This document shows, piece after piece, positions 2,072 through 39,238 of a stretch of 39,458 bases of DNA. The translations under genes were made by a program, and so were the position numbers. Location: the IMG/VR virus record IMGVR_UViG_3300045988_159199; one strand, 5' to 3'. The notes under the pieces were generated by a model that saw nothing but the letters and a program-made list of their open reading frames with translations, was not told where the DNA came from and searched no databases. Each line of letters opens with the position of its first letter. The stretch's first letter is position 1. The stretch is from a virus.

Positions 2072-2383
2072 TCACGTTCTGTTGCGCGGCGCGATTGGCG
2101 CGGATTGGATGTCGTCGTTGAGGGATGTGCCGTGGCCGTTGCCGCCCAGCGAGTGATAGGAGTCGTAGAGGCGTTGGGAGCGTGATTTGAGGTCCTCGTC
2201 CGCCACTCCGTCGTGCTCGATGACCATTTCGCGTCGCAGGTCCTCTAACTGGCACAGCAGGAGCTCGCGCATCCCGTTGATGATCGCTCTGCCCCATCGC
2301 CGCATGAGGCCCAGCACGGTGACCGCGCCACCGCATAAGAAGGGCACCAGCCAATCAACGAGTTGTTCGATTAACTGCGACAT
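2072..2383 (-). CDS. Lysis-associated membrane protein (1 N-terminal TM; possible holin or holin partner)
   Basis: ATG at 2383 is preceded by AAAGGAG. The hydrophobic helix LVDWLVPFLCGGAVTVLGLM is followed by a charged tail. The gene sits directly upstream of the endolysin. Confidence 0.6.
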   Translation of the reverse strand: MSQLIEQLVDWLVPFLCGGAVTVLGLMRRWGRAIINGMRELLLCQLEDLRREMVIEHDGVADEDLKSRSQRLYDSYHSLGGNGHGTSLNDDIQSAPIAPRNRT

Positions 2384-2404
2384 GCGGGGCTCCTTTATGG
2401 TGAG

Positions 2405-2454
2405 AAAACCCACACGTGATACCGAGCGGATTGGCCGCGAGACGTGTGGTTTTT
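2405..2454. terminator. Hairpin (12 of 13 bp) with T-runs on both strands, between the lysis genes and the recombinase gene
   Basis: aaaacccacacgt (2405-2417) pairs with acgtgtggttttt (2442-2454). TTTTT follows on the plus strand just before the recombinase RBS, and TTTTC follows on the minus strand. Confidence 0.35.
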
Positions 2455-2465
2455 CGGAGGTCGAA

Positions 2466-3335
2466 ATGTTGTTGCAAGAGTTTTGGGATGACCGGTATGT
2501 CGGCTATTGCGAGCGCCTGCGCGAGGTCACGCGCGTTGGCTATGAGTCGGCTTGGCGATGCCATGTGGAGCCGGTGTTCGGCAGCATGGAGTTGGCTGAC
2601 ATCGGCGTGGATGACATCGAGCTGTGGCTGTCAGGGTTCGCGAGTCCAGGTGCGGCCCGCAAGGCTTGGGCGGTGTTGAGGCAGATGCTACGCAAGGCCG
2701 CGAAGTGGGGCTACTTAGAGGTCGATGTGACCCGTTTGGAGATTGATCTGCCGGCCAAGCCGCTCCATGTGCCGCGTCTGCTGACCATCGGGCAGACTCG
2801 TCGCCAACTACAGGGCTTTTATGGCCATGCGCTTGAGGCTTGGCTGATTGTGGACTCGTGTCTGGCGTTGCGGCCGGAAGAGGGGTACGGAGTCGATTGG
2901 GCGGATATCGATATGCGTTCCGGCATCACTCATATCCAGCGTGGAGTGCAATGGGTGGCCGGCCACGAAGTGGTGGTGCCGCCGAAGACTGAACTGTCCG
3001 ACCGGTTTCTGCCCCTTCCCCGATTCGCCGTCCGGCGATTGCGGGAGATCCGCAACGGCCGGAAGGGCCGTATCATCGGTGACCTGACCCCACCGCAAGC
3101 CGCGCGACGCTACGCCTCATGGTGCAAAAAGGAGTCGCTGCCCTACGTGCCGGTGCAGAATCTCCGCCACAGTTGGGCCACCAACGCCCTGGAAGCGGGA
3201 GTCAACATCGCGGTGGTCAGCAAGTTCCTTGGTCACACCGACATCAAGACGACCGCCAGATTCTATCTGCGACCGGAAATCGCGTCTCTCAAGGAGGCCC
3301 AAAGCATCTGGGAACGCGCGCTGATCGGGCAATAG
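2466..3335 (+). CDS. Tyrosine site-specific recombinase, predicted shufflon invertase (Rci-like role)
   Basis: GGAGG lies 5 nt upstream of ATG 2466. Tyrosine-recombinase boxes are present: ALRPEEG, NLRHSWATNAL and LGHTDIKTTARFY. It is transcribed opposite to the phage structural genes, and its stop abuts the first recombination site. Confidence 0.85.
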   Translation: MLLQEFWDDRYVGYCERLREVTRVGYESAWRCHVEPVFGSMELADIGVDDIELWLSGFASPGAARKAWAVLRQMLRKAAKWGYLEVDVTRLEIDLPAKPLHVPRLLTIGQTRRQLQGFYGHALEAWLIVDSCLALRPEEGYGVDWADIDMRSGITHIQRGVQWVAGHEVVVPPKTELSDRFLPLPRFAVRRLREIRNGRKGRIIGDLTPPQAARRYASWCKKESLPYVPVQNLRHSWATNALEAGVNIAVVSKFLGHTDIKTTARFYLRPEIASLKEAQSIWERALIGQ

Positions 3336-3337
3336 GA

Positions 3338-3348
3338 TTCCCTAACCC
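3338..3348 (+). repeat. Shufflon crossover site S1 (TTCCCTAACCC)
   Basis: Exact 11-mer, 2 nt after the recombinase stop. It reads TCC CTA ACC (S-L-T) in the cassette frame. Confidence 0.8.
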
Positions 3349-3665
3349 TGACGTCGAATCCGGTCGTGTCTCAGTTCTATCCCTCCACGCTTCCCGTGCG
3401 GGGCAACATGCGCGCCGGCATCGTGACCCTGCACATCTCCGGCTCCAACGTCGTCACTCACGCCACCAAGGATTCAGTGATCGCGAAACTCACGGCGGAC
3501 GCGCGACCGGCCGTACCGGTGCGCGTGCTGTTCGGTATGCAGGGCTCCTCATGGGGACTGTTCGTCGTCAACACCAATGGGGAAGTGACCGTCAGGCACC
3601 GATACGGCGGCAACTCCCTGTCATGGGATTTCGTGGACATCTCGACAACCTATGTGACCGCCTAG
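3339..3665 (+). other. Silent receptor-binding-protein C-terminal cassette 1 (promoterless, no start codon or RBS)
   Basis: The frame is open from the TCC of S1 to TAG 3663-3665 (SLTLTSNPVVSQFYPS...TTYVTA). The stop is followed by the next site. Confidence 0.75.
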
Positions 3666-3670
3666 TGGTT

Positions 3671-3681
3671 TTCCCTAACCC
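3671..3681 (+). repeat. Shufflon crossover site S2 (TTCCCTAACCC)
   Basis: Exact 11-mer. The flanks GGTTT..CCCAGC match the site inside the expressed gene most closely. Confidence 0.8.
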
Positions 3682-3995
3682 AGCGTTCCACGACATGGCG
3701 AGTACCGTACAGCAGCAACAGCGTTTTGCTTACGCGCATCGGTGATATCTGTTTCATGGGCGGCAACGTGAAATTCAACAATAGCGGGCAGAACAATTAC
3801 ACGACGGCTCAGGAGAAGATCCCCGAAGGGTATCGACCCGTCAGCGTCAATACGCCCGTGGCCGTTTTCGGTGGTGAAACGACATTCATCTGTTACGGCG
3901 AGGCCAATGGCACCGTCACGATGCTCGGCAACCCGAACAGCGCGTATGCGGGATGCACCGGCGTATGGCGCACCACCGACCCCATGCCCGCGTAG
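3672..3995 (+). other. Silent RBP C-terminal cassette 2
   Basis: The frame is open from the TCC of S2 to TAG 3993-3995 (SLTQRSTTWRV...IPEGYRP...GVWRTTDPMPA). Confidence 0.75.
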
Positions 3996-3997
3996 TT

Positions 3998-4008
3998 TTC
4001 CCTAACCC
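3998..4008 (+). repeat. Shufflon crossover site S3 (TTCCCTAACCC)
   Basis: Exact 11-mer, 2 nt after the cassette 2 stop. Confidence 0.8.
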
Positions 4009-4322
4009 CTGTCACGGGCCGGGTCAAGATGCCGTATTCCGATAGGTATATCACTCTGGTTCGCGTCGGCCGTATCGTCACCGCCTGCGCGTATATCACG
4101 CTGACAAGTAATTTCAATCAGGTCGGCAACGTGTCCGTCAACGAGACAATTCCGGAGGGTTTCAGACCGTCCGGCGATTCCCGCGCGGTCATGCGCGGCA
4201 CCGACAACAGCGGCGCGACCAGTTTCTACCTTTACGGCACCGCAGACGGGAAAATGGTGTTGAACGGCACCGGATATACCAGCCGATTCGTCGGTATATC
4301 CGGCTGTTGGATTACCGAGTAG
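3999..4322 (+). other. Silent RBP C-terminal cassette 3
   Basis: The frame is open from the TCC of S3 to TAG 4320-4322 (SLTPVTGRVKM...IPEGFRP...GCWITE). It is a paralogue of cassette 2. Confidence 0.75.
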
Positions 4323-4324
4323 CA

Positions 4325-4335
4325 TTCCCTAACCC
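4325..4335 (+). repeat. Shufflon crossover site S4 (TTCCCTAACCC)
   Basis: Exact 11-mer, 2 nt after the cassette 3 stop. Confidence 0.8.
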
Positions 4336-4700
4336 AAACCCAGCGCATCCGGTTCGACCGTTCCGGCACCACGAGCGCCAATGACGAGATGCACCTGTCG
4401 GGCGCGATACTGCCGGTCAGTCCGGCTATCGCGGTCATCAGCATCGTATGGGTCAACAAGGGCGCGTTCAAGGCACAATCGTGGAAAGCCACCACACTGG
4501 CTCGTATGGTCGGCTGGAAGGTGATTGGATCCGCCGTACATTCCCCGGCTGCGGAGAACATTGTCTACGAGCATCTAGGCAAGAACCAGTTCGCCGCGAC
4601 CGGCTCAGGGGAAATCCAATACATCACGCCGGGAACCATAGACATCTTCGCGAATGCGTGGCATCGCGGCTGTCTGATAGCTCCGGTCACGCCCTCATAA
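4326..4700 (+). other. Silent RBP C-terminal cassette 4
   Basis: The frame is open from the TCC of S4 to TAA 4698-4700 (SLTQTQRIRFDRSG...LIAPVTPS). At 375 nt it is the same length as the currently expressed C-terminal segment. Confidence 0.75.
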
Positions 4701-4703
4701 GGT

Positions 4704-4714
4704 TTCCCTAACCC
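4704..4714 (+). repeat. Shufflon crossover site S5 (TTCCCTAACCC)
   Basis: Exact 11-mer, 3 nt after the cassette 4 stop. Confidence 0.8.
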
Positions 4715-5001
4715 CGGCGGAGTACGCGCCGTATATCCAGTGCGCCGGGCATACGGTAACGACCGGTGATGACGGCACGTTCTGGGTGGGCGTCAAGTCT
4801 CCGAACGGCAAGCCTCCGGACTATGCCTCGTACACGGTCGGCCCTTTCGGCACCGGGTTCAATGACGAGGACGGCATCATCGCCCACCTATGGGACGTGA
4901 CCGCCACCGGAGTCCGGTTCCGCCTCTACACGACGCGCTATCAGCGGTGGTGCGGCAAGACCGCGATCTTCGGCAAATGGATCGCCGTATGGCGCCGCTA
5001 G
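4705..5001 (+). other. Silent RBP C-terminal cassette 5
   Basis: The frame is open from the TCC of S5 to TAG 4999-5001 (SLTPAEYAPYIQ...KWIAVWRR). Its stop overlaps the stop of the expressed gene in the palindrome CTAG at 4998-5001. Confidence 0.75.
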
Positions 5002-5999
5002 CTGAACGTGACACCGTCGGGGATTGGCAAGGTGCGAGGCGTGTGCATGCACCGGTCTCCGTTGGACAAGCCGCCGACGACCATGATGGTGCCGTTCGCG
5101 TTCCAAGTCGCTTGTTTCGCCCAATTGCCGACTGGCAAAGCCCACAGGCAGCCGAGAGACACCGCCTTGGACGGTTTCACTCCCGACGCGTATTGGAACA
5201 CCGGGTAATCGTGGCTCAGGTTCACCGTGCTCTTGAACCCGCTCAAGTCCGCGTGGAGCAGTCGATTACGCTCGTCCACGACGATCTGCATGCCGCCGCC
5301 GTAGGCGTCAGGCTGGAATGATTTCGTGTCCTGCCACTTGAATTTCGCGTACAGGAGCGGCTGGGTTAGGGAAACCCAGACGCCTGATTTTGCCTGGTAT
5401 TCGTTGCCGTCGAGTAGTCGGCATTTTTGCCCTTCCCATGGCGTCCATGCGTCTTTTTCGGTTTCGCTGCGGAAGAGCAGATCGGCACCGGCTGAGGCAG
5501 TGAAGGGGTACATCTGTTCGTAGATGACTCCGGTGGAGGTCATGGAGGTCGCCGTCGATGGGATGGTGACTCGGGCGAGGGCCAGTGCTCCTTCTGGTGT
5601 TGCTGGCGTAACGGGATCCACTGCTGGGGTGCCGGTGACGATGATGGCTTCTGGGCCGTCTGTGGGGTCGCTGGCTGGTGAGGCGGTTTCGTTTTGTTTG
5701 ATGCAGATGAGGTCGATGCGACTGTTGGCGCTGGGGGCGGCGGCGTGTTTGACGCTGATGGTGCCGTCGTTACTGAGCCAGACTGGGCCATATCGGTTGG
5801 TGACGGCATCGAAGGCGGCGATGTCGCTGTTCATGCCGTTCCCTGCCGTGACGAGTCCGGTGAGGCTTTTGGCGGTGATGCTGACGCCGGTTTTGATGTT
5901 GCCGTTGGCGTCCTGGGCGGTGGTGGCGCGGAGTGCAGCGCGGATGTCGAATTGGTCTGCCGCGTCGCTGACTGCGGGAAATCCGTTACGGAGCGTCAT
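4998..5999 (-). CDS. Receptor-binding / distal tail fibre protein with exchangeable C-terminus (expressed shufflon gene)
   Basis: ATG 5999 overlaps the upstream stop (ATGA). It is the last tail gene. It contains the inverted crossover site in frame (VSLTQ). The remainder of ORF 4998-6374 is a shadow frame. Confidence 0.85.
   Translation of the reverse strand: MTLRNGFPAVSDAADQFDIRAALRATTAQDANGNIKTGVSITAKSLTGLVTAGNGMNSDIAAFDAVTNRYGPVWLSNDGTISVKHAAAPSANSRIDLICIKQNETASPASDPTDGPEAIIVTGTPAVDPVTPATPEGALALARVTIPSTATSMTSTGVIYEQMYPFTASAGADLLFRSETEKDAWTPWEGQKCRLLDGNEYQAKSGVWVSLTQPLLYAKFKWQDTKSFQPDAYGGGMQIVVDERNRLLHADLSGFKSTVNLSHDYPVFQYASGVKPSKAVSLGCLWALPVGNWAKQATWNANGTIMVVGGLSNGDRCMHTPRTLPIPDGVTFS
5363..5373 (-). 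repeat. Shufflon crossover site S0, inverted relative to S1-S5, inside the expressed RBP gene
   Basis: gggttagggaa is the reverse complement of TTCCCTAACCC. TCC at 5372-5370 is in frame with ATG 5999, the same S-L-T reading as all five cassettes. Confidence 0.8.
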
Positions 6000-24901: not shown

Positions 24902-25206
24902 TGCGGATTCCTTTCGTTGGTTGGTTGTTTGGTTTGTCGGGTGACGGTCAGGCTGCGGATGTGTGGTTGGAGGATTGCAGTGCCGTGTTTGGGGTTGAGG
25001 GACAGGATGCGCAGTTGTCCGAGGCAGAGGTCTCGGTCGTGGAGCACGAACCGGGTGAGCTGGTATTCGGGGGTGAAGGGCGGGATGGCTTTGAGGTATC
25101 CGTCGATGATCGTGCCGTCCACGGTGGTGATGATGCACCGGTGGCCGTCGAGCTCTTCCGGCGTGGCGGTTCGCCAGTCGATGGTGGCTTGCACGCTGCC
25201 CATCAT
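24898..25206 (-). CDS. Hypothetical protein
   Basis: ATG 25206 overlaps the initiator stop (ATGA). The product is 102 aa. The upstream part of ORF 24898-25521 is Arg/Pro junk. Confidence 0.6.
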   Translation of the reverse strand: MMGSVQATIDWRTATPEELDGHRCIITTVDGTIIDGYLKAIPPFTPEYQLTRFVLHDRDLCLGQLRILSLNPKHGTAILQPHIRSLTVTRQTKQPTNERNPQ

Positions 25207-26198
25207 GCGGCCTCGTCCAGTTCGCCCCGGTCGATGGCCTGGCACAGGAGTTCCACGATGCGGGCCGCGTCGGTGCCTTGGGCGAGCAGGCGGGTGACGT
25301 GTGGCAGCCAACGCAGGCGCTCGCCGTCGTCGGGTTGGCGGTTTTTGAGTGGTGTGCTGGTGTCGAGGAGTTTGCGGGCTCGGCGTTCGAGTTCCGTGGC
25401 TTGGTCGGTGGGTGTGGTCGTGGTTTCGGTCGGGGTGCCGATGTTGAGTTCGCGGCCGCGTTTGACCCAGTTGCGCCATGCGGCGTCGAGGTCGTAGGGG
25501 ATTTTTCCGTTGGCGCGGCATGTGTCCTTGAATTTTTCGAGCTCCCAGTCGGGGTCGAGTCCGTAGCCGGCGGCGAGCGCGGTGAGGTCTGGTGTCGGCT
25601 GGTAGAGGGCGAGCGCCTGTTTGCGGGAGTCGAACGTTTGTTCGATGGTTGTTTTTGTTTTTTGCGCGCGCGTACTCTCTCTTGGTGGTTCTAATGATGG
25701 TTCTTTAAGAGATTGGGTGTCATGGGTGACACCCCGTGGCGTCATGGGTGACACCCCGTGATGGTCATGGGTGACACCCCGTGTGGTCATGGGTGACACC
25801 CCGTGGTTGGGTTGCGGGGTGTCATGGGTGCTACCCCGTGAATCTGACGGGGTGTCACTGGTGCTACCCCGTTTTTTCGTGGTTTGCTTGTTCTTACGGT
25901 TTTTGTATTCGACGTGGTTGTGGCCGTCGAGGGTGATGTGGTAGACGTAGGGGCTTCGGTCTGCGCGGTAGCGGGTGCCGTAGTCTTCGTCTCGGGTGAT
26001 GAGCCCGTGGTCTTCGAGGTAGCGCAGGGCTCGTTGCACGGTGCTTGCGCTGGCTTCGCCTTCGGCCATGAGCCGGTCGATGCTTGGCCATGCGCGGTTG
26101 TTCTCGTCCGCGTAGTCGCACAGGATCAACAGGAAGAGTTTGGCGGAGCGGTCGCCGACCTTGATTCTTTTCGCCCGCCCGTACAGCAGTGAGCTCAT
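25203..26198 (-). CDS. Replication initiator / replisome organiser with N-terminal winged-helix domain
   Basis: WPSIDRLMAEGEASASTVQRALRYLEDHGLI. The iteron array lies inside the coding sequence and is translated as GVSPMT/GVTHD repeats. Confidence 0.7.
   Translation of the reverse strand: MSSLLYGRAKRIKVGDRSAKLFLLILCDYADENNRAWPSIDRLMAEGEASASTVQRALRYLEDHGLITRDEDYGTRYRADRSPYVYHITLDGHNHVEYKNRKNKQTTKKRGSTSDTPSDSRGSTHDTPQPNHGVSPMTTRGVTHDHHGVSPMTPRGVTHDTQSLKEPSLEPPRESTRAQKTKTTIEQTFDSRKQALALYQPTPDLTALAAGYGLDPDWELEKFKDTCRANGKIPYDLDAAWRNWVKRGRELNIGTPTETTTTPTDQATELERRARKLLDTSTPLKNRQPDDGERLRWLPHVTRLLAQGTDAARIVELLCQAIDRGELDEAA
25719..25873. repeat. Iteron array (putative phage origin): 4 exact plus 2 variant copies of GTCATGGGTGACACCCCGTG
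   Basis: Exact copies start at 25719, 25741, 25764 and 25786 (22-23 bp period). Variants are at 25821-25840 and 25854-25873. AT-richer flanks lie at 25681-25715 and 25870-25900. Confidence 0.7.
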
Positions 26199-32489: not shown

Positions 32490-32774
32490 TCACGCCATCT
32501 CGCTTTCGGCGAGCGCTGGAATGGTGTTTTCGGCGGTGTCGAGCTTCTCAGCCATGGCAATGATTGAGGACAGAGGACGATGCGTCACGCCCGCAATGCG
32601 GCGCAGCTCGTCAAAGTTAAAAACACCGACATTGATTTTGCGGTTTAACGTGTTCCGAGGAATTTCTGCCCGATCAGCGAGCATAACTTGTGTCATTCCT
32701 GACTCATTGAGGACCTGCTTTATTGCAATCCCTAAATGCCTGTTTTCAAGCAAATATTGTTTCATATGAGACAT
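32490..32774 (-). CDS. Cro-like XRE-family HTH regulator, first gene of the early (lytic-direction) operon
   Basis: GMTQVMLADRAEIPRNTLNRKIN is an HTH. The gene is divergent from its paralogue, and its first codons (ATGTCTCATATGAAAC) coincide with an operator-like repeat. Confidence 0.8.
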   Translation of the reverse strand: MSHMKQYLLENRHLGIAIKQVLNESGMTQVMLADRAEIPRNTLNRKINVGVFNFDELRRIAGVTHRPLSSIIAMAEKLDTAENTIPALAESEMA

Positions 32775-32864
32775 GATAAAACCAAGATTGCGCTCTTCAA
32801 AACACGGCGTGTCTCATATGAAACAAGAATGCTTCATATGTAAGTAAAATGTCTCACATGCCAA
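32759..32864. promoter_or_regulatory. Operator cluster of the genetic switch: four copies of TGTCTCAYATG(AAAC)-type sites
   Basis: 32759-32773 (gtttcatatgagaca) is the exact reverse complement of 32810-32824 (tgtctcatatgaaac). Weaker copies lie at 32831-32845 and 32850-32864. The region is AT-rich and only 74 bp are non-coding. Confidence 0.6.
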
Positions 32865-33229
32865 CAGGAAAGAAGACCGCGACGATTGAATCAAAGGCGC
32901 TTTCAATCGCAATCAAGAGAGCTATGGCCGTACGTGATTTCAAGACACGATCACTGGCTATCGAATCGGGAGTGCCTTATGGCACCCTCCGACGCATCCT
33001 TGAGCTCAATACAGTCGCCGACTATGAACAACTCAGGAAGATTGCGGGAGCATTGCGCATGCCGCTCTCTTCCATCATCGCCGACGCCGAGCACCTTACA
33101 AAAGACGCAGGGGTCATCGAAGATTACCAAGCTACCGATAACCGAGAAACTTCGAGTGACCATGAGAACATCGACATCGACGCATGGGCCGACCGGATCA
33201 AGGCCGAAGATTCCATACACAATAATTAG
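32849..33229 (+). CDS. CI-like XRE-family HTH repressor (no S24 peptidase domain)
   Basis: LAIESGVPYGTLRRILE is an HTH. It shares IAIK, LR.IAG and PLSSIIA.AE.L with the Cro-like paralogue. It is transcribed toward int and followed by a terminator. Confidence 0.75.
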   Translation: MSHMPTGKKTATIESKALSIAIKRAMAVRDFKTRSLAIESGVPYGTLRRILELNTVADYEQLRKIAGALRMPLSSIIADAEHLTKDAGVIEDYQATDNRETSSDHENIDIDAWADRIKAEDSIHNN

Positions 33230-33258
33230 TAGTCCACAGTCGCCGAATAAACAAAACG

Positions 33259-33286
33259 CCCCGGTCGCTCGTTATGAGCGCCGGGG
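33259..33286. terminator. Bidirectional rho-independent terminator
   Basis: ccccggtcgctc / gagcgccgggg forms the stem (one bulge). TATTTTGT follows on the plus strand and CGTTTTGTTTATT follows on the minus strand. It lies between two convergent genes. Confidence 0.75.
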
Positions 33287-33293
33287 TATTTTG

Positions 33294-34523
33294 TCATATC
33301 TCGTAGGCCTCTATGGTGAGGCTGGTGTAGTAGCGGCTAACGAGTATTTTCAATCGCTTGCCAACAAGTGGCTCAGATGCAAAGTATGCGGCCGTCGACC
33401 GCGCCGTGATTTCCGAGAGCAAGACACCTCCGCTTTTGAGTGCAAAGTGCGGTTTTGCCTGCGATCCTTCCGGCACCGGTAGCTGTTCGACAGTGGCCTC
33501 GAAAGCGATGAACCCTTCGTCGGGAATTCTAGGACCATTCCAGTTGTTCTCCGAGACGCGGAATATTGCCGTTGCGGCGACCACATCCGCTCCATATGCT
33601 TGTCGCTGTTCGTATTCCTTGAGCGAGGCGTTACCAGTTTCGCTTTCCTTCGCCTCTTCCAGCGTTGGCACCATGACGTAGATTTCGGGAACGCCTGTTT
33701 GGTACCATCCTTGGCGCATGGCCACGAGTTCCACATTTTTCGCGCCAGATTCAAGGATTGCACGAATGTGGATTACCGCGATGTGGTTGAAGAGAACGCC
33801 GAACGGTTTCCCTTTGTATTCGACCGCATACCCATCATCCACGCCGCTGCGCCATTGTCTTCCGTTAAGTCGACTTTTCAGCGTTATCGGACGGGTAACA
33901 ACGCTGATTTTTTCGGCACGCCCCTCTTTGAGCTTGAGTATGGGGCGTGGGTCGTAGACGTAGATTGTGGCAGGGTATGAACCGGAGACGGTTTCGGTTT
34001 CCCGAGTCACCGACACTGACAGAATTTTTGGCGGGATGATGATCGGCGACGGCGATATCGTCCTTGACAACGCAGAACTTTGTCCCGTTTCTCGACGAGC
34101 CGACACTAACGCTTCACCATCCTCTACCTCGACGCCGGCGAGCGCAGGCGATGTTTCATCATTGGGCTGTGCATGTCCGTGGTTTGCGCGTCCGTCCCAG
34201 TGACCATTGGCTGCTCGTTTTCGCTCGTGTTCGTTATCCTCGTCCAGCACGATGCTGGGGTCTTTTGCGGCCCTGGCGGCGCGTTGTTCGGCTCGAATCT
34301 TCTCGGGGTCGTGGATCATGTCGCCGACGACCCACAGCATCCATCCGACGAATGCGATGATTAGCGCGATTATGGTGCATGTCAGGAAATCGGTGCTCAA
34401 TCCGCCAACGAAAATCAGCAGGGCGAATATCCATACTCCGATTGCCAGAATCCGGAATATGACCATACCGATGGTTCTGGGCATCGACGCCTTTCGCTTG
34501 GCCTGACGTTTTCCGGGCATCAT
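33294..34523 (-). CDS. Membrane protein, 2 N-terminal TM helices plus about 300-aa domain of unknown function (island gene D)
   Basis: 409-aa ORF with no competing frame. Helices: MVIFRILAIGVWIFALLIFVGGL and FLTCTIIALIIAFVGWMLWVV. It is preceded by the duplicated leader. Confidence 0.8.
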   Translation of the reverse strand: MMPGKRQAKRKASMPRTIGMVIFRILAIGVWIFALLIFVGGLSTDFLTCTIIALIIAFVGWMLWVVGDMIHDPEKIRAEQRAARAAKDPSIVLDEDNEHERKRAANGHWDGRANHGHAQPNDETSPALAGVEVEDGEALVSARRETGQSSALSRTISPSPIIIPPKILSVSVTRETETVSGSYPATIYVYDPRPILKLKEGRAEKISVVTRPITLKSRLNGRQWRSGVDDGYAVEYKGKPFGVLFNHIAVIHIRAILESGAKNVELVAMRQGWYQTGVPEIYVMVPTLEEAKESETGNASLKEYEQRQAYGADVVAATAIFRVSENNWNGPRIPDEGFIAFEATVEQLPVPEGSQAKPHFALKSGGVLLSEITARSTAAYFASEPLVGKRLKILVSRYYTSLTIEAYEI

Positions 34524-35369: not shown

Positions 35370-36512
35370 TCAGTTGTCCGCTTGCCGAAATGTTTTTGAG
35401 CCGAATCCCATGGAGGCTCCTTGCTCTTTGAGCCCATCCGCCCATTGGTCTAGGAATCGGAATGGCACGTTGAGGCTGTTTTCGGCCTTGAACGTATCTA
35501 TCCCTTTATTTGGGTCGGCCGGGTCTCCGTATCCGGCAACAATCATTTGCTTAAGTAGTATCGGATGCTCGTCACCGACGTGTACAGGCTCCTCTTTTCT
35601 CCATCCTCTCGCGCTAAGTTGGATTTGCAGCGATCGGGTTCTGTCCGCGTCGATTATTCCGAGGTTGCTCGCGCGACTGATCATCGATGATATGGACATG
35701 CCCCATCCTGCTTTGAGTCGCACCAAATCGGTGAGCATGAGGCGCTGTGGCATGATGAGCTTCGCGTCGTTTTGAGGCATGAGCAGAGCACCGGCGAATC
35801 GGTGAGCCTCCCTCTCCATTTCCCGATAGAGCTGGGGTCTGCGGTATCGATGCAGAATTAGGTGTCCGAGCTCGTGTGCGATGGTGAATCTGAGTCTGTC
35901 ACCCGTATTGTTTTTCGCGCTGTATCCGATGGTCGGCATATCCTTGCAGTTCGGTTGCGTCACTCCGTCGCTGTTCAGGTGTGCGGTCTGTTTCGAGGCC
36001 AAGGCATGGAGCGGTGCCACCACGATGCCCATTTTTTCTATGGCGCGCGTGAGATTGGGGACGCTGCCGGATTCATTGAGTCCGAGATGAGTGCGGGTAC
36101 TGTCTGCCAAGCGCTCTATGCGGCTTTGCTCCAGCTCATTTTCTCTTGGAGCTATGGCATCAATCCATGATGTTTTGGGTTGCAGCCTCAGCACCGAGGA
36201 TAGCTTCTGCGCAACCGAGCGGAGCAGAGCATATTCCGCAGCAATGGCGTTTAGTTCTCCGACCGATGCGCTTGACGTATGGCGATACGTCAATTCAACA
36301 ATAGGGACGGGCTGATCCTGGTCGAGGAAAAACGACAACGGGTAGTCGGTCGCCATTGAGATTCTGCGCGCGGCCTCATCGGTGAAATCGATTTGCCGGT
36401 TTTGCAGTTTACTGAGCGTTCCTTGAGCTATGCCGGTTTTTTCCGCGAGCTTTTTCTGGGTCATGCGTTCGACCTGGCGGAGCAGGATGACCCTGTCCGG
36501 ATTATAGTTCAC
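35370..36512 (-). CDS. XRE-family HTH fused to ImmA/IrrE-type zinc metallopeptidase (M78, COG2856-like) (island gene B)
   Basis: The N-terminal HTH reads MTQKKLAEKTGIAQGTLSKLQN. HELGH is encoded at 35862-35876 (CAC GAG CTC GGA CAC) within FTIAHELGHLILH...EREAHRFAGALLMP. Confidence 0.85.
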   Translation of the reverse strand: MNYNPDRVILLRQVERMTQKKLAEKTGIAQGTLSKLQNRQIDFTDEAARRISMATDYPLSFFLDQDQPVPIVELTYRHTSSASVGELNAIAAEYALLRSVAQKLSSVLRLQPKTSWIDAIAPRENELEQSRIERLADSTRTHLGLNESGSVPNLTRAIEKMGIVVAPLHALASKQTAHLNSDGVTQPNCKDMPTIGYSAKNNTGDRLRFTIAHELGHLILHRYRRPQLYREMEREAHRFAGALLMPQNDAKLIMPQRLMLTDLVRLKAGWGMSISSMISRASNLGIIDADRTRSLQIQLSARGWRKEEPVHVGDEHPILLKQMIVAGYGDPADPNKGIDTFKAENSLNVPFRFLDQWADGLKEQGASMGFGSKTFRQADN

Positions 36513-37797: not shown

Positions 37798-38021
37798 GCA
37801 CCGCAAGATATCTCAGCCTCAAGGAGGTCGGCGAGCGCATCGGCACGAGCAATCCGGCCGCGAGGGGGTATCATCTGCCGGAACCGGACGCACTGATCGG
37901 CACGACTCGCGGCTGGCTTCCGGAGACAATCGATGCGTGGAACGCCGCCCGCCCCGGTCGTGGTGCGGGCGGCGGAAGGCCGCGCAAGAATCGCAATCAG
38001 GCCGATTCTCCCACCGCCTGA
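37794..38021 (+). CDS. Xis/AlpA-like small HTH DNA-binding protein (candidate excisionase)
   Basis: GGGAGG lies upstream of ATG 37794. Sequence: YLSLKEVGERIGTSNPAARGY..TRGWLPETIDAW, followed by a basic tail. Its 3' end overlaps the integrase 3' end by 25 nt (convergent). Confidence 0.6.
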   Translation: MSTARYLSLKEVGERIGTSNPAARGYHLPEPDALIGTTRGWLPETIDAWNAARPGRGAGGGRPRKNRNQADSPTA

Positions 38022-39238
38022 CGAGCCTTGTCGGCGAGCGCCGCAAGGCTTGCGGCGGACCAGTGGGTGTATCCGGCCGTCGTGCTGATTTTGGCGTGGC
38101 CCATCATCGCTTTTCTCGCGTCTTCCGGGGCTCCGGCTTCGGCGAGGTGCGTGGAGAAGAAGTGGCGGGCGCTGCGGATGGTGACGCAGGGCAATCCGGC
38201 GTCTTCGAGAGAGCGTTTCCAGCGGCGGCGTTCCACGGTGTTGGTGAGCGGGTGTCCCTCGCGCGTGAATATGAGCTGGCCGGGCTGGCATTGCCTGCGT
38301 CCGACGAGCGCCCAGAGTCCGAGCCACGTCTGGTTGCTGACGGGCACGAACCGGTTGCCCTGCTTGCTTTTCGGTTCGACGAGCCAGAAGCATCCCTCGT
38401 AATGGCGGGAGCGGAGCCAGTTGGGCACTTCTGCATCGGATCTGAAGCGTTGGAGCTCCCACATGATCTGGATTCCGTGCACGCCGTCGACGGTGGCGAG
38501 CTCTTCGGGCAGGATGGCGAATCTTTCGGCCTCTCTCATGCCGGTCTCGAACATGATGTTCCACATGAGGCTCCACATTTCGCGGTCGTCGTCGGTATCT
38601 GCCAGGTGGCTGTATTTGCGACGCTTGGGGTCGAGTGCGGCCTGCGCCGCCCGGGCCGGCTGTCCGGGTTCGAGGATTTGGGTGGCCTGCGACTCGTAGC
38701 GCGGCGGCGTTGCGGCGAGCGCCGGGTTCGATGGGATGAGGCGTTCGCGGACCGCTGCGTCGAGCACCTGCCTGAGTCTGAGATAGTGGTTGTGGACGGT
38801 TTTGCTTCGGTGTTCCTTGGCGAGTTTGGCGCACATTCCGTCGATGGTGGCGGGGGTTATTCTGTCGAGTCGCATTCCGCCGATGACGCTGCGGATGGTG
38901 TTGCAGTCGGATCGATAGGTTTCGAGGGTGCGGGGTTTGACATTGGGCGCGATGGTATTGAGCCATCGCTCCATCCATTCGTCGAGCGTTGGGGTTCCGG
39001 CCAGGGGCATATCGCCCTCGCGCTGCAGTCTTTTGATTTTTTCTTGGAGCCGCTGCCGCGCGGCGGTCTTGGTGGGAGCCTGCGCCTCGACCATGCGGCG
39101 TTTGCCGGTGCGCGGGTTTGGTGCGATTTCTTTGCGCGCGTGCCAGGTTCCTCGTTGATCCTGCCATTCGCTGCCGCTTCCCCGCGGCCTGCGTGGAGGT
39201 GTTTTGGACGTCGTTGTTTGGTTCTGTGCGGGCATCAT
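37997..39238 (-). CDS. int: Tyrosine integrase
   Basis: RSARHFFSTHLAEAG and MMGHAKISTTAGYTHW catalytic boxes are present, with an N-terminal SAM-like core-binding region. The gene is adjacent to att/tRNA. Confidence 0.9.
   Translation of the reverse strand: MMPAQNQTTTSKTPPRRPRGSGSEWQDQRGTWHARKEIAPNPRTGKRRMVEAQAPTKTAARQRLQEKIKRLQREGDMPLAGTPTLDEWMERWLNTIAPNVKPRTLETYRSDCNTIRSVIGGMRLDRITPATIDGMCAKLAKEHRSKTVHNHYLRLRQVLDAAVRERLIPSNPALAATPPRYESQATQILEPGQPARAAQAALDPKRRKYSHLADTDDDREMWSLMWNIMFETGMREAERFAILPEELATVDGVHGIQIMWELQRFRSDAEVPNWLRSRHYEGCFWLVEPKSKQGNRFVPVSNQTWLGLWALVGRRQCQPGQLIFTREGHPLTNTVERRRWKRSLEDAGLPCVTIRSARHFFSTHLAEAGAPEDARKAMMGHAKISTTAGYTHWSAASLAALADKARQAVGESA

What the first reader, a model, noticed from the sequence alone, without database searches (positions are those of the whole stretch)
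32490..33229. Genetic switch built from two paralogous HTH genes whose first codons are themselves operator copies
The divergent genes are clearly homologous to each other (shared IAIK, LR.IAG, PLSSIIA.AE.L), which is unusual for a CI/Cro pair. Both begin M-S-H-M, encoded by ATGTCTCA(T/C)ATG. That sequence is part of a 15-bp element present four times. 32759-32773 and 32810-32824 are exact reverse complements of each other, with degenerate copies at 32831-32845 and 32850-32864, all around a CATATG core. Repressor binding would therefore overlap both start codons and both promoters within a gap of only 74 bp. The CI-like protein has no S24 autocleavage domain, so induction must use another route, possibly the ImmA-like protein 2 kb away.
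Basis: partly seen in the sequence, partly recalled or inferred. Interest (0 to 1): 0.6.

Follow-up and report, generated by a model that had tools for sequence, protein, structure and literature searches.

The report
Bifidobacterium prophage lysis-lysogeny switch
This is the on/off control region of a common Bifidobacterium longum-type prophage: two related DNA-binding genes point away from each other across matched binding sites, an ordinary lambda-like design, and the shared "M-S-H-M" start is most likely promoter and binding-site DNA in front of two leaderless genes, not protein.

Summary
Gene A (32490-32774, minus) and gene B (32849-33229, plus) are homologous XRE-type HTH proteins (40% identity, E 8e-14; both PHROG 4583). 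A perfect 17-bp inverted repeat (32757-32773 / 32810-32826) forms two 16-bp palindromes, TGTYTCATATGARACA, found nowhere else in the window. The other two "copies" are weak and not above chance by sequence alone.

All 63 related loci keep the A/B pair. All 32 distinct intergenic variants keep the same geometry:
- O1-O2 spacing is 51-53 bp.
- A TAnnnT -10 box sits 6-7 nt upstream of the central ATG of each gene.
- There is no Shine-Dalgarno sequence.
- Only the lytic promoter has a TTGnnn -35.

B has no in-frame upstream start in 17 of 32 variants. So both genes are most likely leaderless and start at the fourth codon. "MSH" is then the tail of the -10 box plus an operator half-site.

The "ImmA-like" gene is RmrA of a RosmerTA defence cassette. 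It occurs in only 2-3 of the 63 loci, so it is not the induction protease. Paralogous CI/Cro pairs (434, P22) and doubly leaderless switches (PY54) are already known.

Verdict: a new, uncharacterised member of a known kind. The induction route is unknown. The scan has noted similar leaderless switches on other DNA.

The parts
32493..32765 (-). Gene A, the Cro-like XRE-HTH protein and first gene of the leftward early (lytic) operon. Coordinates are for the proposed leaderless start (91 aa, MKQYLLENRH...). The annotated ORF runs to 32774 (94 aa, MSHMKQ...).
   Evidence: ORF. HTH_3/HTH_26 and PHROG 4583 'transcriptional repressor', E 1e-12. A homologue lies upstream of and divergent from B in 63/63 loci. 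The ATG sits at the O1 dyad centre in every locus.
32858..33229 (+). Gene B, the CI-like XRE-HTH protein, a single-gene unit. Coordinates are for the proposed leaderless start (123 aa, MPTGKK...). The annotated ORF starts at 32849 (126 aa, MSHMPTGKK...). It has an HTH domain (about residues 10-82), an acidic variable linker, and a conserved C-terminal motif IDIDAWADRIKAEDS.
   Evidence: PHROG 4583, E 9e-9; alignment A1. AlphaFold model pLDDT 76, five-helix XRE fold. Best PDB fold matches are ClgR, C.BclI, SinR, DdrO and 434 Cro. 13 of 17 orthologues hit Pfam HTH_26; none hit S24.
32758..32773 (.). Operator O1, TGTTTCATATGAGACA. It spans -8 to +8 of the lytic promoter P_A, and its CATATG core holds the proposed start codon of gene A.
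   Evidence: A palindrome of the locus-specific type is at this position in all 32 intergenic variants, 51-53 bp from O2.
32810..32825 (.). Operator O2, TGTCTCATATGAAACA, the exact reverse complement of O1. It is centred 52 bp from O1 (five helical turns), at -52.5 of P_A and -40.5 of P_B.
   Evidence: It is flanked by a conserved block (A/C)CTCGGCG in nearly all loci.
32830..32845 (.). Weak site O3, TGCTTCATATGTAAGT (12/16, one good half-site). It is centred 20 bp from O2, at -20.5 of P_B.
   Evidence: not above chance by sequence. Relatives L039 and L041 have good palindromes at exactly this position, TATCCCAATTGGGTCT and TGTTCCAGCTGGAACT.
32850..32865 (.). Weak site O4, TGTCTCACATGCCAAC (11/16, left half 7/8). 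It is centred on the proposed +1 and ATG of gene B, mirroring O1 on P_A.
   Evidence: not above chance by sequence. It is a good site in L004, L005, L050 and L057 (TGTCCCATATGGCAAC) and absent in the L003, L006, L039, L041 and L049 groups.
32773..32800 (-). P_A, the lytic (early) promoter. -35 TTGAAG at 32800..32795, 16-nt spacer, -10 TATCAT at 32778..32773. Predicted +1 is the A of ATG at 32765.
   Evidence: TTGnnn (often TTGACA) and TAnnAT, exactly 7 nt before the ATG, in all 32 variants.
32845..32850 (+). P_B -10 box, TAAAAT. Predicted +1 is the A of ATG at 32858. There is no recognisable -35; O2 lies there.
   Evidence: Read from the sequence. TAnnnT lies 6-7 nt before the ATG of B in all variants. 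No SD-like sequence in any.
33251..33294 (.). Bidirectional intrinsic terminator between gene B and the convergent cargo genes.
   Evidence: Hairpin of -29.1 kcal/mol, z -7.2, followed by a U-run.

Best explanation
This is the immunity (lysis/lysogeny) switch of a Rin-shufflon-type Bifidobacterium prophage.

**The two genes**
- Gene B is a stand-alone gene ended by a strong terminator. It is the CI-like maintenance repressor.
- Gene A is the first gene of the long leftward early operon. It is the Cro-like regulator.
- They are ancient paralogues of one XRE-HTH family.

**The two promoters**
- They stand back to back, with predicted starts 93 bp apart.
- The strong lytic promoter P_A has TTGAAG-16-TATCAT. 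The weak P_B has TAAAAT and no -35.
- Each -10 box ends 7 nt before an ATG with no ribosome-binding site. Both mRNAs are therefore most likely leaderless, and the proteins start at MKQ... (A) and MPTGKK... (B).
- 'ATG TCT CA' is the end of the -10 box plus an operator half-site, not codons.

**Proposed mechanism**
- B dimers bind the two strong 16-bp palindromes. O1 covers -8 to +8 of P_A. O2 lies five helical turns away, just upstream of the P_A -35.
- Binding is probably cooperative and shuts the lytic operon.
- O2 is centred at -40.5 of P_B, the position from which lambda CI activates PRM. B may therefore also stimulate its own gene.
- The weak sites O3 and O4 over the P_B -10 and +1 would let excess B, or A, turn P_B down.

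**Shown:** sequence, homology, conserved geometry, fold.

**Inferred:** protein binding, which protein prefers which site, leaderless starts, autoactivation.

**Unknown:** the induction signal. B has no S24 domain, and the nearby HTH-M78 gene is defence cargo.
For: **Homology and fold**
- A and B give E 8e-14 by BLASTP and hhalign 98.8%, E 9e-17.
- Both hit PHROG 4583, 'transcriptional repressor'.
- The model of B has the XRE fold, with ClgR, C-proteins, SinR and 434 Cro as best matches.

**Genomic context**
- To the left on the minus strand lie SSB, ParB-like, replication initiator, small terminase subunit and the tail genes.
- To the right lie the terminator, cargo genes and an integrase at 37997-39238.

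**Operators**
- The perfect 17-bp inverted repeat makes two 16-bp palindromes, unique in the window.
- Across 32 distinct intergenic variants from 63 loci, the operator sequence changes by class: GTCTCAT, GTCCCAT, GTTCCAT, GTCCA. O1 and O2 change together.
- O1-O2 stays at 51-53 bp, and ATG-to-ATG at 92-94 nt.

**Leaderless starts**
- TAnnnT lies 6-7 nt upstream of both central ATGs in all variants, and no SD-like sequence occurs in any.
- B orthologues have no in-frame upstream start in 17 of 32 variants. Conservation of the B protein begins exactly at that Met.
- In the L003 group the operator and -10 are kept, although the leaderless ATG opens only a 7-codon mini-ORF and gene A uses an SD-led TTG further downstream.
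- About 15% of B. pseudolongum TSSs are leaderless (PMC4782308).
- Bifidobacterium promoters use TATAAT/TTGACA, with -10 positions 1, 2 and 6 mattering most (PMC5746004).
- Precedents: PY54 cI and cro are both leaderless, and lambda cI is leaderless (PMC4488713).

**The M78 gene is cargo**
- It is RmrA and occurs in only 2-3 of 63 loci.
Against: - There are no experimental data. There is no binding assay.
- O3 and O4 are not above chance in this window.
- The -9 ATG is in frame in this window for both genes, and in 27 of 32 variants for A. Use of the longer form cannot be excluded.
- Actinobacterial promoters often lack a -35, so a missing -35 at P_B does not prove dependence on an activator.
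- Covariation between recognition-helix residues and operator class is only suggestive: LRRIL with GTCTC versus LRKIL with GTCCC, with class IV as an exception.
- Which paralogue maintains lysogeny is inferred from gene position only.
Confidence: 0.72

Rival explanations
1. Both proteins really start at the first ATG (M-S-H-M). The operators therefore overlap translated codons and start codons of conventional, leadered mRNAs made from promoters further upstream.
For: - Both upstream ATGs are in frame and give the longest ORFs.
- The -9 ATG is present for gene A in 27 of 32 variants.
Against: - There is no SD before either ATG in any of the 32 variants.
- B has no upstream in-frame start in 17 of 32 variants. 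Where one exists, the three extra residues vary with the operator (MSH, MTH, MPY, VSH) while the protein proper is conserved from MxTGKK.
- The -9 ATG is explained by TAnnAT plus the G of the operator's TGT.
- There is no room for another promoter: the 93 bp between the ATGs is filled by P_A, O2 and P_B.
Confidence: 0.18
2. The HTH-M78 (ImmA/IrrE-like) protein at 35370-36512 is the induction protease. It would cleave repressor B, as ImmA cleaves ImmR in ICEBs1 or IrrE cleaves DdrO.
For: - It has Peptidase_M78 and HTH domains.
- It lies 2.1 kb from B.
- B has no S24 domain.
- DdrO is among the fold matches of B.
Against: - It matches the RmrA antitoxin models of RosmerTA at E 1.8e-86. The upstream gene matches RmrT weakly.
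- It is present in only 2 near-identical loci, plus one weak hit, out of 63 that carry the switch. Loci with a 99%-identical B carry other cargo instead.
- It is transcribed convergently with B from its own unit.
- Earlier scan notes e1-3690017 and e1-3690018 reached the same view.
Confidence: 0.05
3. The A/B pair is not the lysogeny switch. It would be a self-contained regulatory or toxin-antitoxin-like module, similar to restriction-modification controller C-proteins or an Xre antitoxin. The true prophage repressor would lie elsewhere.
For: - The best sequence and fold matches include C.BclI, C.Esp1396I and the HipB/HigA antitoxins.
- No experiment ties B to immunity.
Against: - The position between the integrase/cargo module and the early lytic operon is canonical.
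- A heads the operon that runs into SSB and the replication genes.
- There is no toxin or restriction-modification partner.
- No other repressor candidate in the window has operators at a lytic promoter.
- The pair is conserved in 63/63 prophage or viral loci.
Confidence: 0.05

Closest known systems
Lambdoid immunity switches with homologous repressor and Cro (phage 434 cI/cro, P22 c2/cro; lambda OR for the logic)
   Same: - Divergent repressor and Cro genes.
- Several 14-17-bp palindromic operators overlap two back-to-back promoters.
- In 434 and P22, Cro and the repressor DNA-binding domain share a fold and are homologous; 434 Cro is a fold match of B.
- One operator lies about -41 of the repressor promoter, as OR2 does at PRM.
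- The lambda cI mRNA is leaderless (cited in PMC4488713).
   Different: - B has no S24/LexA-type autocleavage domain.
- The two strong operators are 52 bp apart and bracket the lytic promoter, rather than forming three adjacent sites at about 23-bp spacing.
- No second (OL-like) operator region exists in the window.
- The host is actinobacterial and the recognition sequence is different.
immB of the telomere phages PY54 / N15 / phiKO2 (PMC4488713)
   Same: - cI and cro are each transcribed as a single leaderless mRNA that begins at the AUG (RACE-mapped).
- The operators are 16-bp palindromes in the intergenic region.
   Different: - The hosts are Gram-negative and the proteins are unrelated.
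- PY54 Cro binds a single site.
- Here the leaderless starts are only inferred.
Mycobacteriophage BPs / Brujita switch, gp33 repressor and gp34 Cro (PMC4557955)
   Same: - An actinobacteriophage with a small HTH repressor lacking an S24 domain.
- A palindromic operator with a CATATG-like core (CGACATATGTCG) lies over PR, and a half-site overlaps the Prep start.
- A tetrameric repressor may loop between sites.
   Different: - BPs uses integration-dependent immunity: attP lies inside the repressor gene and there is an ssrA-like tag.
- Here B is a complete gene far from att, followed by a terminator, with no ssrA-like C-terminus.
- No sequence relationship was detected.
Lactococcal phage TP901-1 CI/MOR switch (PMC7250872)
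   Same: - Two HTH repressors are transcribed divergently from a region of less than 1 kb.
- CI has no autocleavage domain.
- The small lytic-side regulator can act together with CI.
   Different: - TP901-1 CI is hexameric, with three dispersed operators (OR, OL, OD).
- No CI-MOR-type complex has been shown here.
- Within-locus A-B similarity is no higher than between loci, so nothing points to a co-evolving heterodimer interface.
dnaJ2-integrated, Rin-shufflon bifidoprophages (Bb423phi1, Bl157phi1 and others; Mavrich et al. 2018, PMC6109161)
   Same: - The window carries the published 11-bp rix site TTCCCTAACCC six times next to a tyrosine recombinase.
- Relatives in that paper are mitomycin-C inducible.
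   Different: - That paper does not describe the repressor/Cro genes, promoters or operators of this group.
- Whether those exact prophages carry this A/B pair was not tested; there was no hit in the phage collection.

Membership tests
CI/Cro-type temperate-phage immunity switch | Two divergently transcribed DNA-binding regulators located between the integration/lysogeny module and the early lytic operon | tested here: met
   - A heads the minus-strand operon leading to SSB, ParB-like, replication initiator and terminase.
- B is monocistronic with a terminator.
- Cargo genes and an integrase lie to the right.
- The pair is kept in 63/63 loci.
CI/Cro-type temperate-phage immunity switch | Repeated palindromic operators overlapping both promoters | tested here: met
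   - O1 spans -8 to +8 of P_A. O2 is at -40.5 of P_B. Weak O3 and O4 lie over the P_B -10 and +1.
- The geometry is conserved in 32 variants while the sequence class changes.
CI/Cro-type temperate-phage immunity switch | Repressor binds the operators, represses the lytic promoter and confers immunity; the system is bistable | not testable with these tools
   This needs EMSA or footprinting, reporter fusions and immunity assays.
LexA/lambda-CI-type autocleavable repressors | C-terminal Peptidase_S24 domain with the Ser-Lys dyad and an Ala-Gly cleavage site | tested here: not met
   - B and 17 orthologues have no S24 hit.
- B is 123-126 aa, with an acidic tail predicted at low confidence.
XRE / Cro-C1 HTH family (Pfam HTH_3, HTH_26; PHROG 4583) | Five-helix HTH domain matching the family profiles | tested here: met
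   - A hits HTH_3 at E 1.4e-4 (just under the gathering score) and PHROG 4583 at E 1e-12.
- B hits PHROG 4583 at E 9e-9.
- 13 of 17 B orthologues hit HTH_26.
- The B model matches ClgR, C.BclI, SinR and 434 Cro, with target-normalised TM 0.75-0.9.
ImmR/ImmA (or DdrO/IrrE) protease-controlled repressor systems | An M78/COG2856 protease gene genetically linked to, and co-inherited with, the repressor gene | tested here: not met
   The only M78 gene is RmrA of RosmerTA. It is present in 2-3 of the 63 loci that have the switch.
Leaderless mRNAs | Transcription starts at the A of the AUG, with no 5' UTR or SD | tested here: inconclusive
   - Indirect support: there is no SD in any of the 32 variants, TAnnnT lies 6-7 nt upstream of both ATGs, and B has no alternative start in 17 of 32.

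The most novel reading that the evidence does not exclude
One 16-bp element would serve at once as operator, promoter discriminator and +1, and start codon plus codons 2-3 of a leaderless regulator gene. This holds for A in every locus and for B in about a third. Immunity specificity and the N-terminal residues of the regulators would then be forced to co-evolve (M-K-Q with GTTTCAT, M-E-H with GTTCCAT, M-R-H with GTCTCAT on the coding side).

In addition, induction of this S24-less, ImmA-less repressor in a mitomycin-inducible prophage group would run through its conserved C-terminal IDIDxWADRIKxEDS motif. That motif could be a docking site for an as yet unidentified anti-repressor or protease. 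This would be a new induction route for gut Actinobacteria.
Probability: 0.2. Interest if true: 0.6.

Novelty: new member of a known kind. Interest (0 to 1): 0.35.

Why it matters
**Practical use**
- Bifidobacterium longum and B. breve prophages of this type are common in infant and adult gut metagenomes: 56 IMG/VR loci were hit.
- Some relatives are inducible, yet their control circuit has not been described.
- The analysis gives a concrete, testable map: two promoters, four sites, and corrected start codons for both regulators.
- It also gives at least four natural operator/repressor specificity classes. These could serve as orthogonal repressor-promoter parts for engineering bifidobacteria.

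**Annotation**
- The start codons of both genes are probably called 9 nt too far upstream.
- The nearby M78 gene should not be read as the induction protease.

**Conceptual weight**
- It is an ordinary lambda-like design.
- The open question it sharpens is how an S24-less repressor senses DNA damage in this group.

Tried and rejected
- **Own-genome search for further operator copies.** The window's assembly is not held.
- **Genus-wide search with B.** It gave 0/151 and the tool itself flagged the result as uninformative. It conflicts with the 6 Bifidobacterium species found by the search for related loci, so I did not use it.
- **Pattern-based search for gene A in genome contigs.** It found nothing. 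tblastn on the fetched loci then found A in 63/63.
- **INPHARED phage collection.** No relative of B.
- **PDB by sequence.** Nothing significant for B. Only weak XRE hits for A: C.BclI at 0.002, plus SinR and HipB.
- **LexA-controlled anti-repressor.** One perfect actinobacterial SOS box exists (25630-25645), but it lies inside the replication-initiator ORF. No anti-repressor family was recognised among the early genes. The point is left open.
- **A/B heterodimer or co-evolution idea.** Within-locus A-B identity (27%) equals between-locus identity (26.5%). No support.
- **RNA-hairpin reading of the 17-bp inverted repeat.** Rejected. The predicted transcripts diverge from within it, and each arm is itself a palindrome whose type changes in concert between loci.
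Full report
**1. What is in the sequence**

Gene A (32490-32774, minus strand, 94 aa) and gene B (32849-33229, plus strand, 126 aa) diverge across 74 bp.
- The two proteins are homologous: 40% identity over 83 residues, E 8e-14.
- Both ORFs open with ATGTCTCA(T/C)ATG, which reads M-S-H-M.
- The inverted repeat is exact and slightly longer than reported: 17 bp, 32757-32773 against 32810-32826.
- Each arm is itself a 16-bp near-palindrome, TGTYTCATATGARACA. With up to three mismatches this motif occurs only at those two places in the 39.5-kb window. Chance expectation is 0.24, and none of 100 shuffles reached two.

I call the two strong sites O1 (32758-32773) and O2 (32810-32825).

The two 'degenerate copies' are weaker than described. 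O3 (32830-32845) has four mismatches and O4 (32850-32865) has five. Sites that poor are about as frequent in the window as chance predicts. What speaks for them is position: they are centred exactly 20 and 40 bp from O2. Relatives also help, as section 3 shows.

**2. Context**

The window is a prophage.
- Left of gene A, all on the minus strand, lie an SSB, a ParB-like protein, a replication initiator, a small terminase subunit, then the head and tail genes.
- Right of gene B lies a strong bidirectional terminator (-29.1 kcal/mol, z -7.2). After it come four convergent cargo genes and a tyrosine integrase at 37997-39238.
- At the far left, a second tyrosine recombinase (2187-3335) is followed by six exact copies of TTCCCTAACCC. 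This is the published rix crossover site of the Rin shufflon of Bifidobacterium breve/longum prophages.
- Some members of that group were shown to respond to mitomycin C (PMC6109161). That paper does not describe their repressor, Cro, promoters or operators.
- Related loci are almost all from Bifidobacterium.

So A and B sit where a temperate phage keeps its switch. A is on the lytic side (Cro-like). B is on the lysogenic side (CI-like).

**3. Comparative test**

Searching with B returned 7 loci from species genomes and 56 from IMG/VR. tblastn found an A homologue, upstream and divergent, in 63 of 63 loci. Profiles of the A and B families align with 98.8% probability, E 9e-17. The duplication is therefore old and the pairing stable.

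Within-locus A-B identity (27%) is no higher than between-locus identity (26.5%). The window's lineage simply has an A that is more B-like than usual (32-41%).

The intergenic region exists in 32 distinct versions. All keep the same skeleton:
- A palindrome lies at O1 and another at O2, 51-53 bp apart (five helical turns).
- The gap from the end of O2 to the ATG of B is 31-33 nt.
- The distance from ATG to ATG is 92-94 nt.
- The palindrome sequence differs between lineages. Half-sites are GTCTCAT/GTTTCAT, GTCCCAT/GTGCCAT, GTTCCAT/GTCCTAT or GTCCA.
- O1 and O2 change together within a locus.

This is the pattern expected for binding sites of a locus-specific protein.

The weak sites behave differently across lineages.
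- O3 is a good palindrome in the L039 and L041 lineages.
- O4 is a good site in the L004, L050 and L057 lineages.
- The L003, L006 and L049 lineages have neither.

One MAG locus (L007) carries a clean 51-bp deletion. It fuses O1 to O2 and removes the whole lytic promoter.

**4. The M-S-H-M start is probably not protein**

On the minus strand a sigma-70-type promoter, TTGAAG-16-TATCAT, ends at 32773. That is seven bases before the second ATG of gene A (32765-32763). On the plus strand TAAAAT (32845-32850) ends seven bases before the second ATG of gene B (32858).

The arrangement is universal in the relatives.
- All 32 variants have TAnnnT 6-7 nt upstream of both central ATGs.
- All have a TTGnnn -35 (often TTGACA) for the A promoter only.
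- None has a Shine-Dalgarno-like sequence before either ATG.

The upstream 'ATG' is the AT that ends the -10 box plus the G of the operator's TGT.
- It is missing for B whenever the -10 box ends differently. B has no in-frame upstream start at all in 17 of 32 variants, and a -9 ATG or GTG in only 12.
- It is missing for A in 5 of 32 variants.
- Where the three extra residues exist they follow the operator (MSH, MTH, MPY, VSH). Protein conservation starts at M-[AP]-T-G-K-K.
- In the L003 lineage the operator and -10 box are retained. There the central ATG opens only a seven-codon mini-ORF, and gene A starts at a downstream SD-led TTG.

Leaderless transcripts are common in this genus: about 15% of mapped starts in B. 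pseudolongum (PMC4782308). Bifidobacterium promoters follow TATAAT/TTGACA, with -10 positions 1, 2 and 6 mattering most (PMC5746004).

I conclude, at roughly 70-75%, that both genes are leaderless and start at codon 4. The start codon of A sits at the dyad centre of O1. The start codon of B sits at the centre of the weak O4.

**5. How it most likely works**

With +1 at 32765 (P_A) and 32858 (P_B), the sites fall as follows.

| Site | Position relative to P_A | Position relative to P_B |
|---|---|---|
| O1 | spans -8 to +8 | |
| O2 | centred at -52.5 | centred at -40.5 |
| O3 | | centred at -20.5 |
| O4 | | centred at -0.5 |

P_A is a good promoter. P_B has no -35, and O2 lies where one would be.

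The most economical model is lambda-like.
- B dimers occupy O1 and O2. They lie on the same face of the helix, so binding is probably cooperative. This shuts the lytic operon.
- From O2, B may help RNA polymerase at P_B, as CI does from OR2 at PRM (my own knowledge).
- Excess B, or A made after induction, would occupy O3 and O4 (or O2) and shut P_B.

Only the geometry is shown. Binding, site preference and autoactivation are inferred. I put autoactivation at about 35%, because actinobacterial promoters often lack a -35 anyway.

The recognition helices differ between the paralogues: VPYGTLRRIL in B and IPRNTLNRKI in A. Different site preferences are therefore plausible. B's LRR-to-LRK change tracks the GTCTC-to-GTCCC operator change, with one exceptional class. 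That is suggestive only.

**6. Structure and family**

- B modelled with 17 orthologues gives a confident five-helix XRE domain (pLDDT 84-92 over residues 11-90). The tail is predicted at low confidence.
- The best fold matches are ClgR, the restriction-modification controller proteins C.BclI and C.Esp1396I, SinR, DdrO and 434 Cro.
- No orthologue has an S24 domain.
- After a variable acidic linker, many B proteins share a C-terminal motif, IDIDxWADRIKxEDS. Its role is unknown. It could mediate oligomerisation or serve as a docking site.

**7. Induction**

Its upstream neighbour matches RmrT weakly. The pair is found in only 2-3 of the 63 loci that carry the switch. Loci with a 99%-identical B carry other cargo in its place. 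This agrees with earlier notes of this scan. It is defence cargo, not a conserved partner of the switch.

A perfect actinobacterial SOS box exists at 25630-25645. It lies inside the replication-initiator ORF next to iteron-like repeats. No anti-repressor family was recognised. The induction route stays open.

**8. Comparison with what is known**

- Homologous repressor/Cro pairs are classical in phages 434 and P22 (my own knowledge).
- Doubly leaderless cI/cro pairs were mapped in PY54, and lambda cI is leaderless (PMC4488713).
- S24-less small repressors occur in BPs, which has palindromes with a CATATG-like core (PMC4557955), and in TP901-1.
- This scan has already logged similar 'both genes leaderless' switches in other genomes.
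- I found no paper on the operators or promoters of any Bifidobacterium prophage.

The finding is therefore a new, uncharacterised member of a well-known kind. It comes with a neat overlap of operator, +1 and start codon, a set of natural specificity classes, and an unresolved induction mechanism.

Noticed in passing
window 25630-25645: A perfect actinobacterial SOS (LexA) box consensus, TCGAACGTTTGTTCGA (0 mismatches; about 0.005 expected). It lies inside the replication-initiator ORF 25203-26198 (minus), about 60 bp from four iteron-like direct repeats (catgggtgacaccccgtg, 25720-25800). It could be chance, or a LexA link to replication or induction.
   Followed up: partly
window 2187-5373: A Rin shufflon. 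The tyrosine recombinase at 2187-3335 is followed by six exact copies of the published rix site TTCCCTAACCC (3338, 3671, 3998, 4325 and 4704 on plus; 5363 on minus). This places the prophage in the group of Mavrich et al. 2018 (PMC6109161).
   Followed up: partly
L007:5860-6015 (MAG labelled Dysosmobacter): A clean 51-bp deletion, relative to L039 and L047, fuses O1 to O2 and removes the whole lytic promoter. It looks like recombination between the two operator copies and should leave a prophage that cannot start its early operon. The host label may be a binning error.
   Followed up: partly
window 32801-32809 and the same position in L001-L063: A GC-rich block, (A/C)CTCGGCG, lies between the P_A -35 and O2. 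It is conserved in nearly all 32 intergenic variants whatever the operator class. It is not part of the palindrome and has no counterpart at O1. Its function is unexplained; it could be an extended O2 contact, an UP-like element or a host-factor site.
   Followed up: no
L003:5500-5925 (minus strand) and the 20+ near-identical IMG/VR loci: In this lineage the leaderless ATG at O1 opens only a 7-codon mini-ORF (MKQISLK*). The gene A homologue starts about 50 nt downstream at an SD-led TTG whose first residues (MKQI...) repeat those of the mini-ORF. This suggests a small duplication that converted a leaderless gene into a leadered one.
   Followed up: partly
window 33170-33215 (B residues about 105-119) and alignment A1: A conserved C-terminal motif, IDIDxWADRIKxEDS, follows a variable acidic linker in most B orthologues. 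A second group ends instead in ...DPNxxFExExPRD. The motif is predicted helical at low confidence and its role is unknown.
   Followed up: no
L005:5880-5920: O1 reads TGTCCCGTATGGCACA. The central CAT (the ATG of gene A) is mutated, so gene A has lost its leaderless start in this B. simiiventris prophage. The element may be decaying.
   Followed up: no
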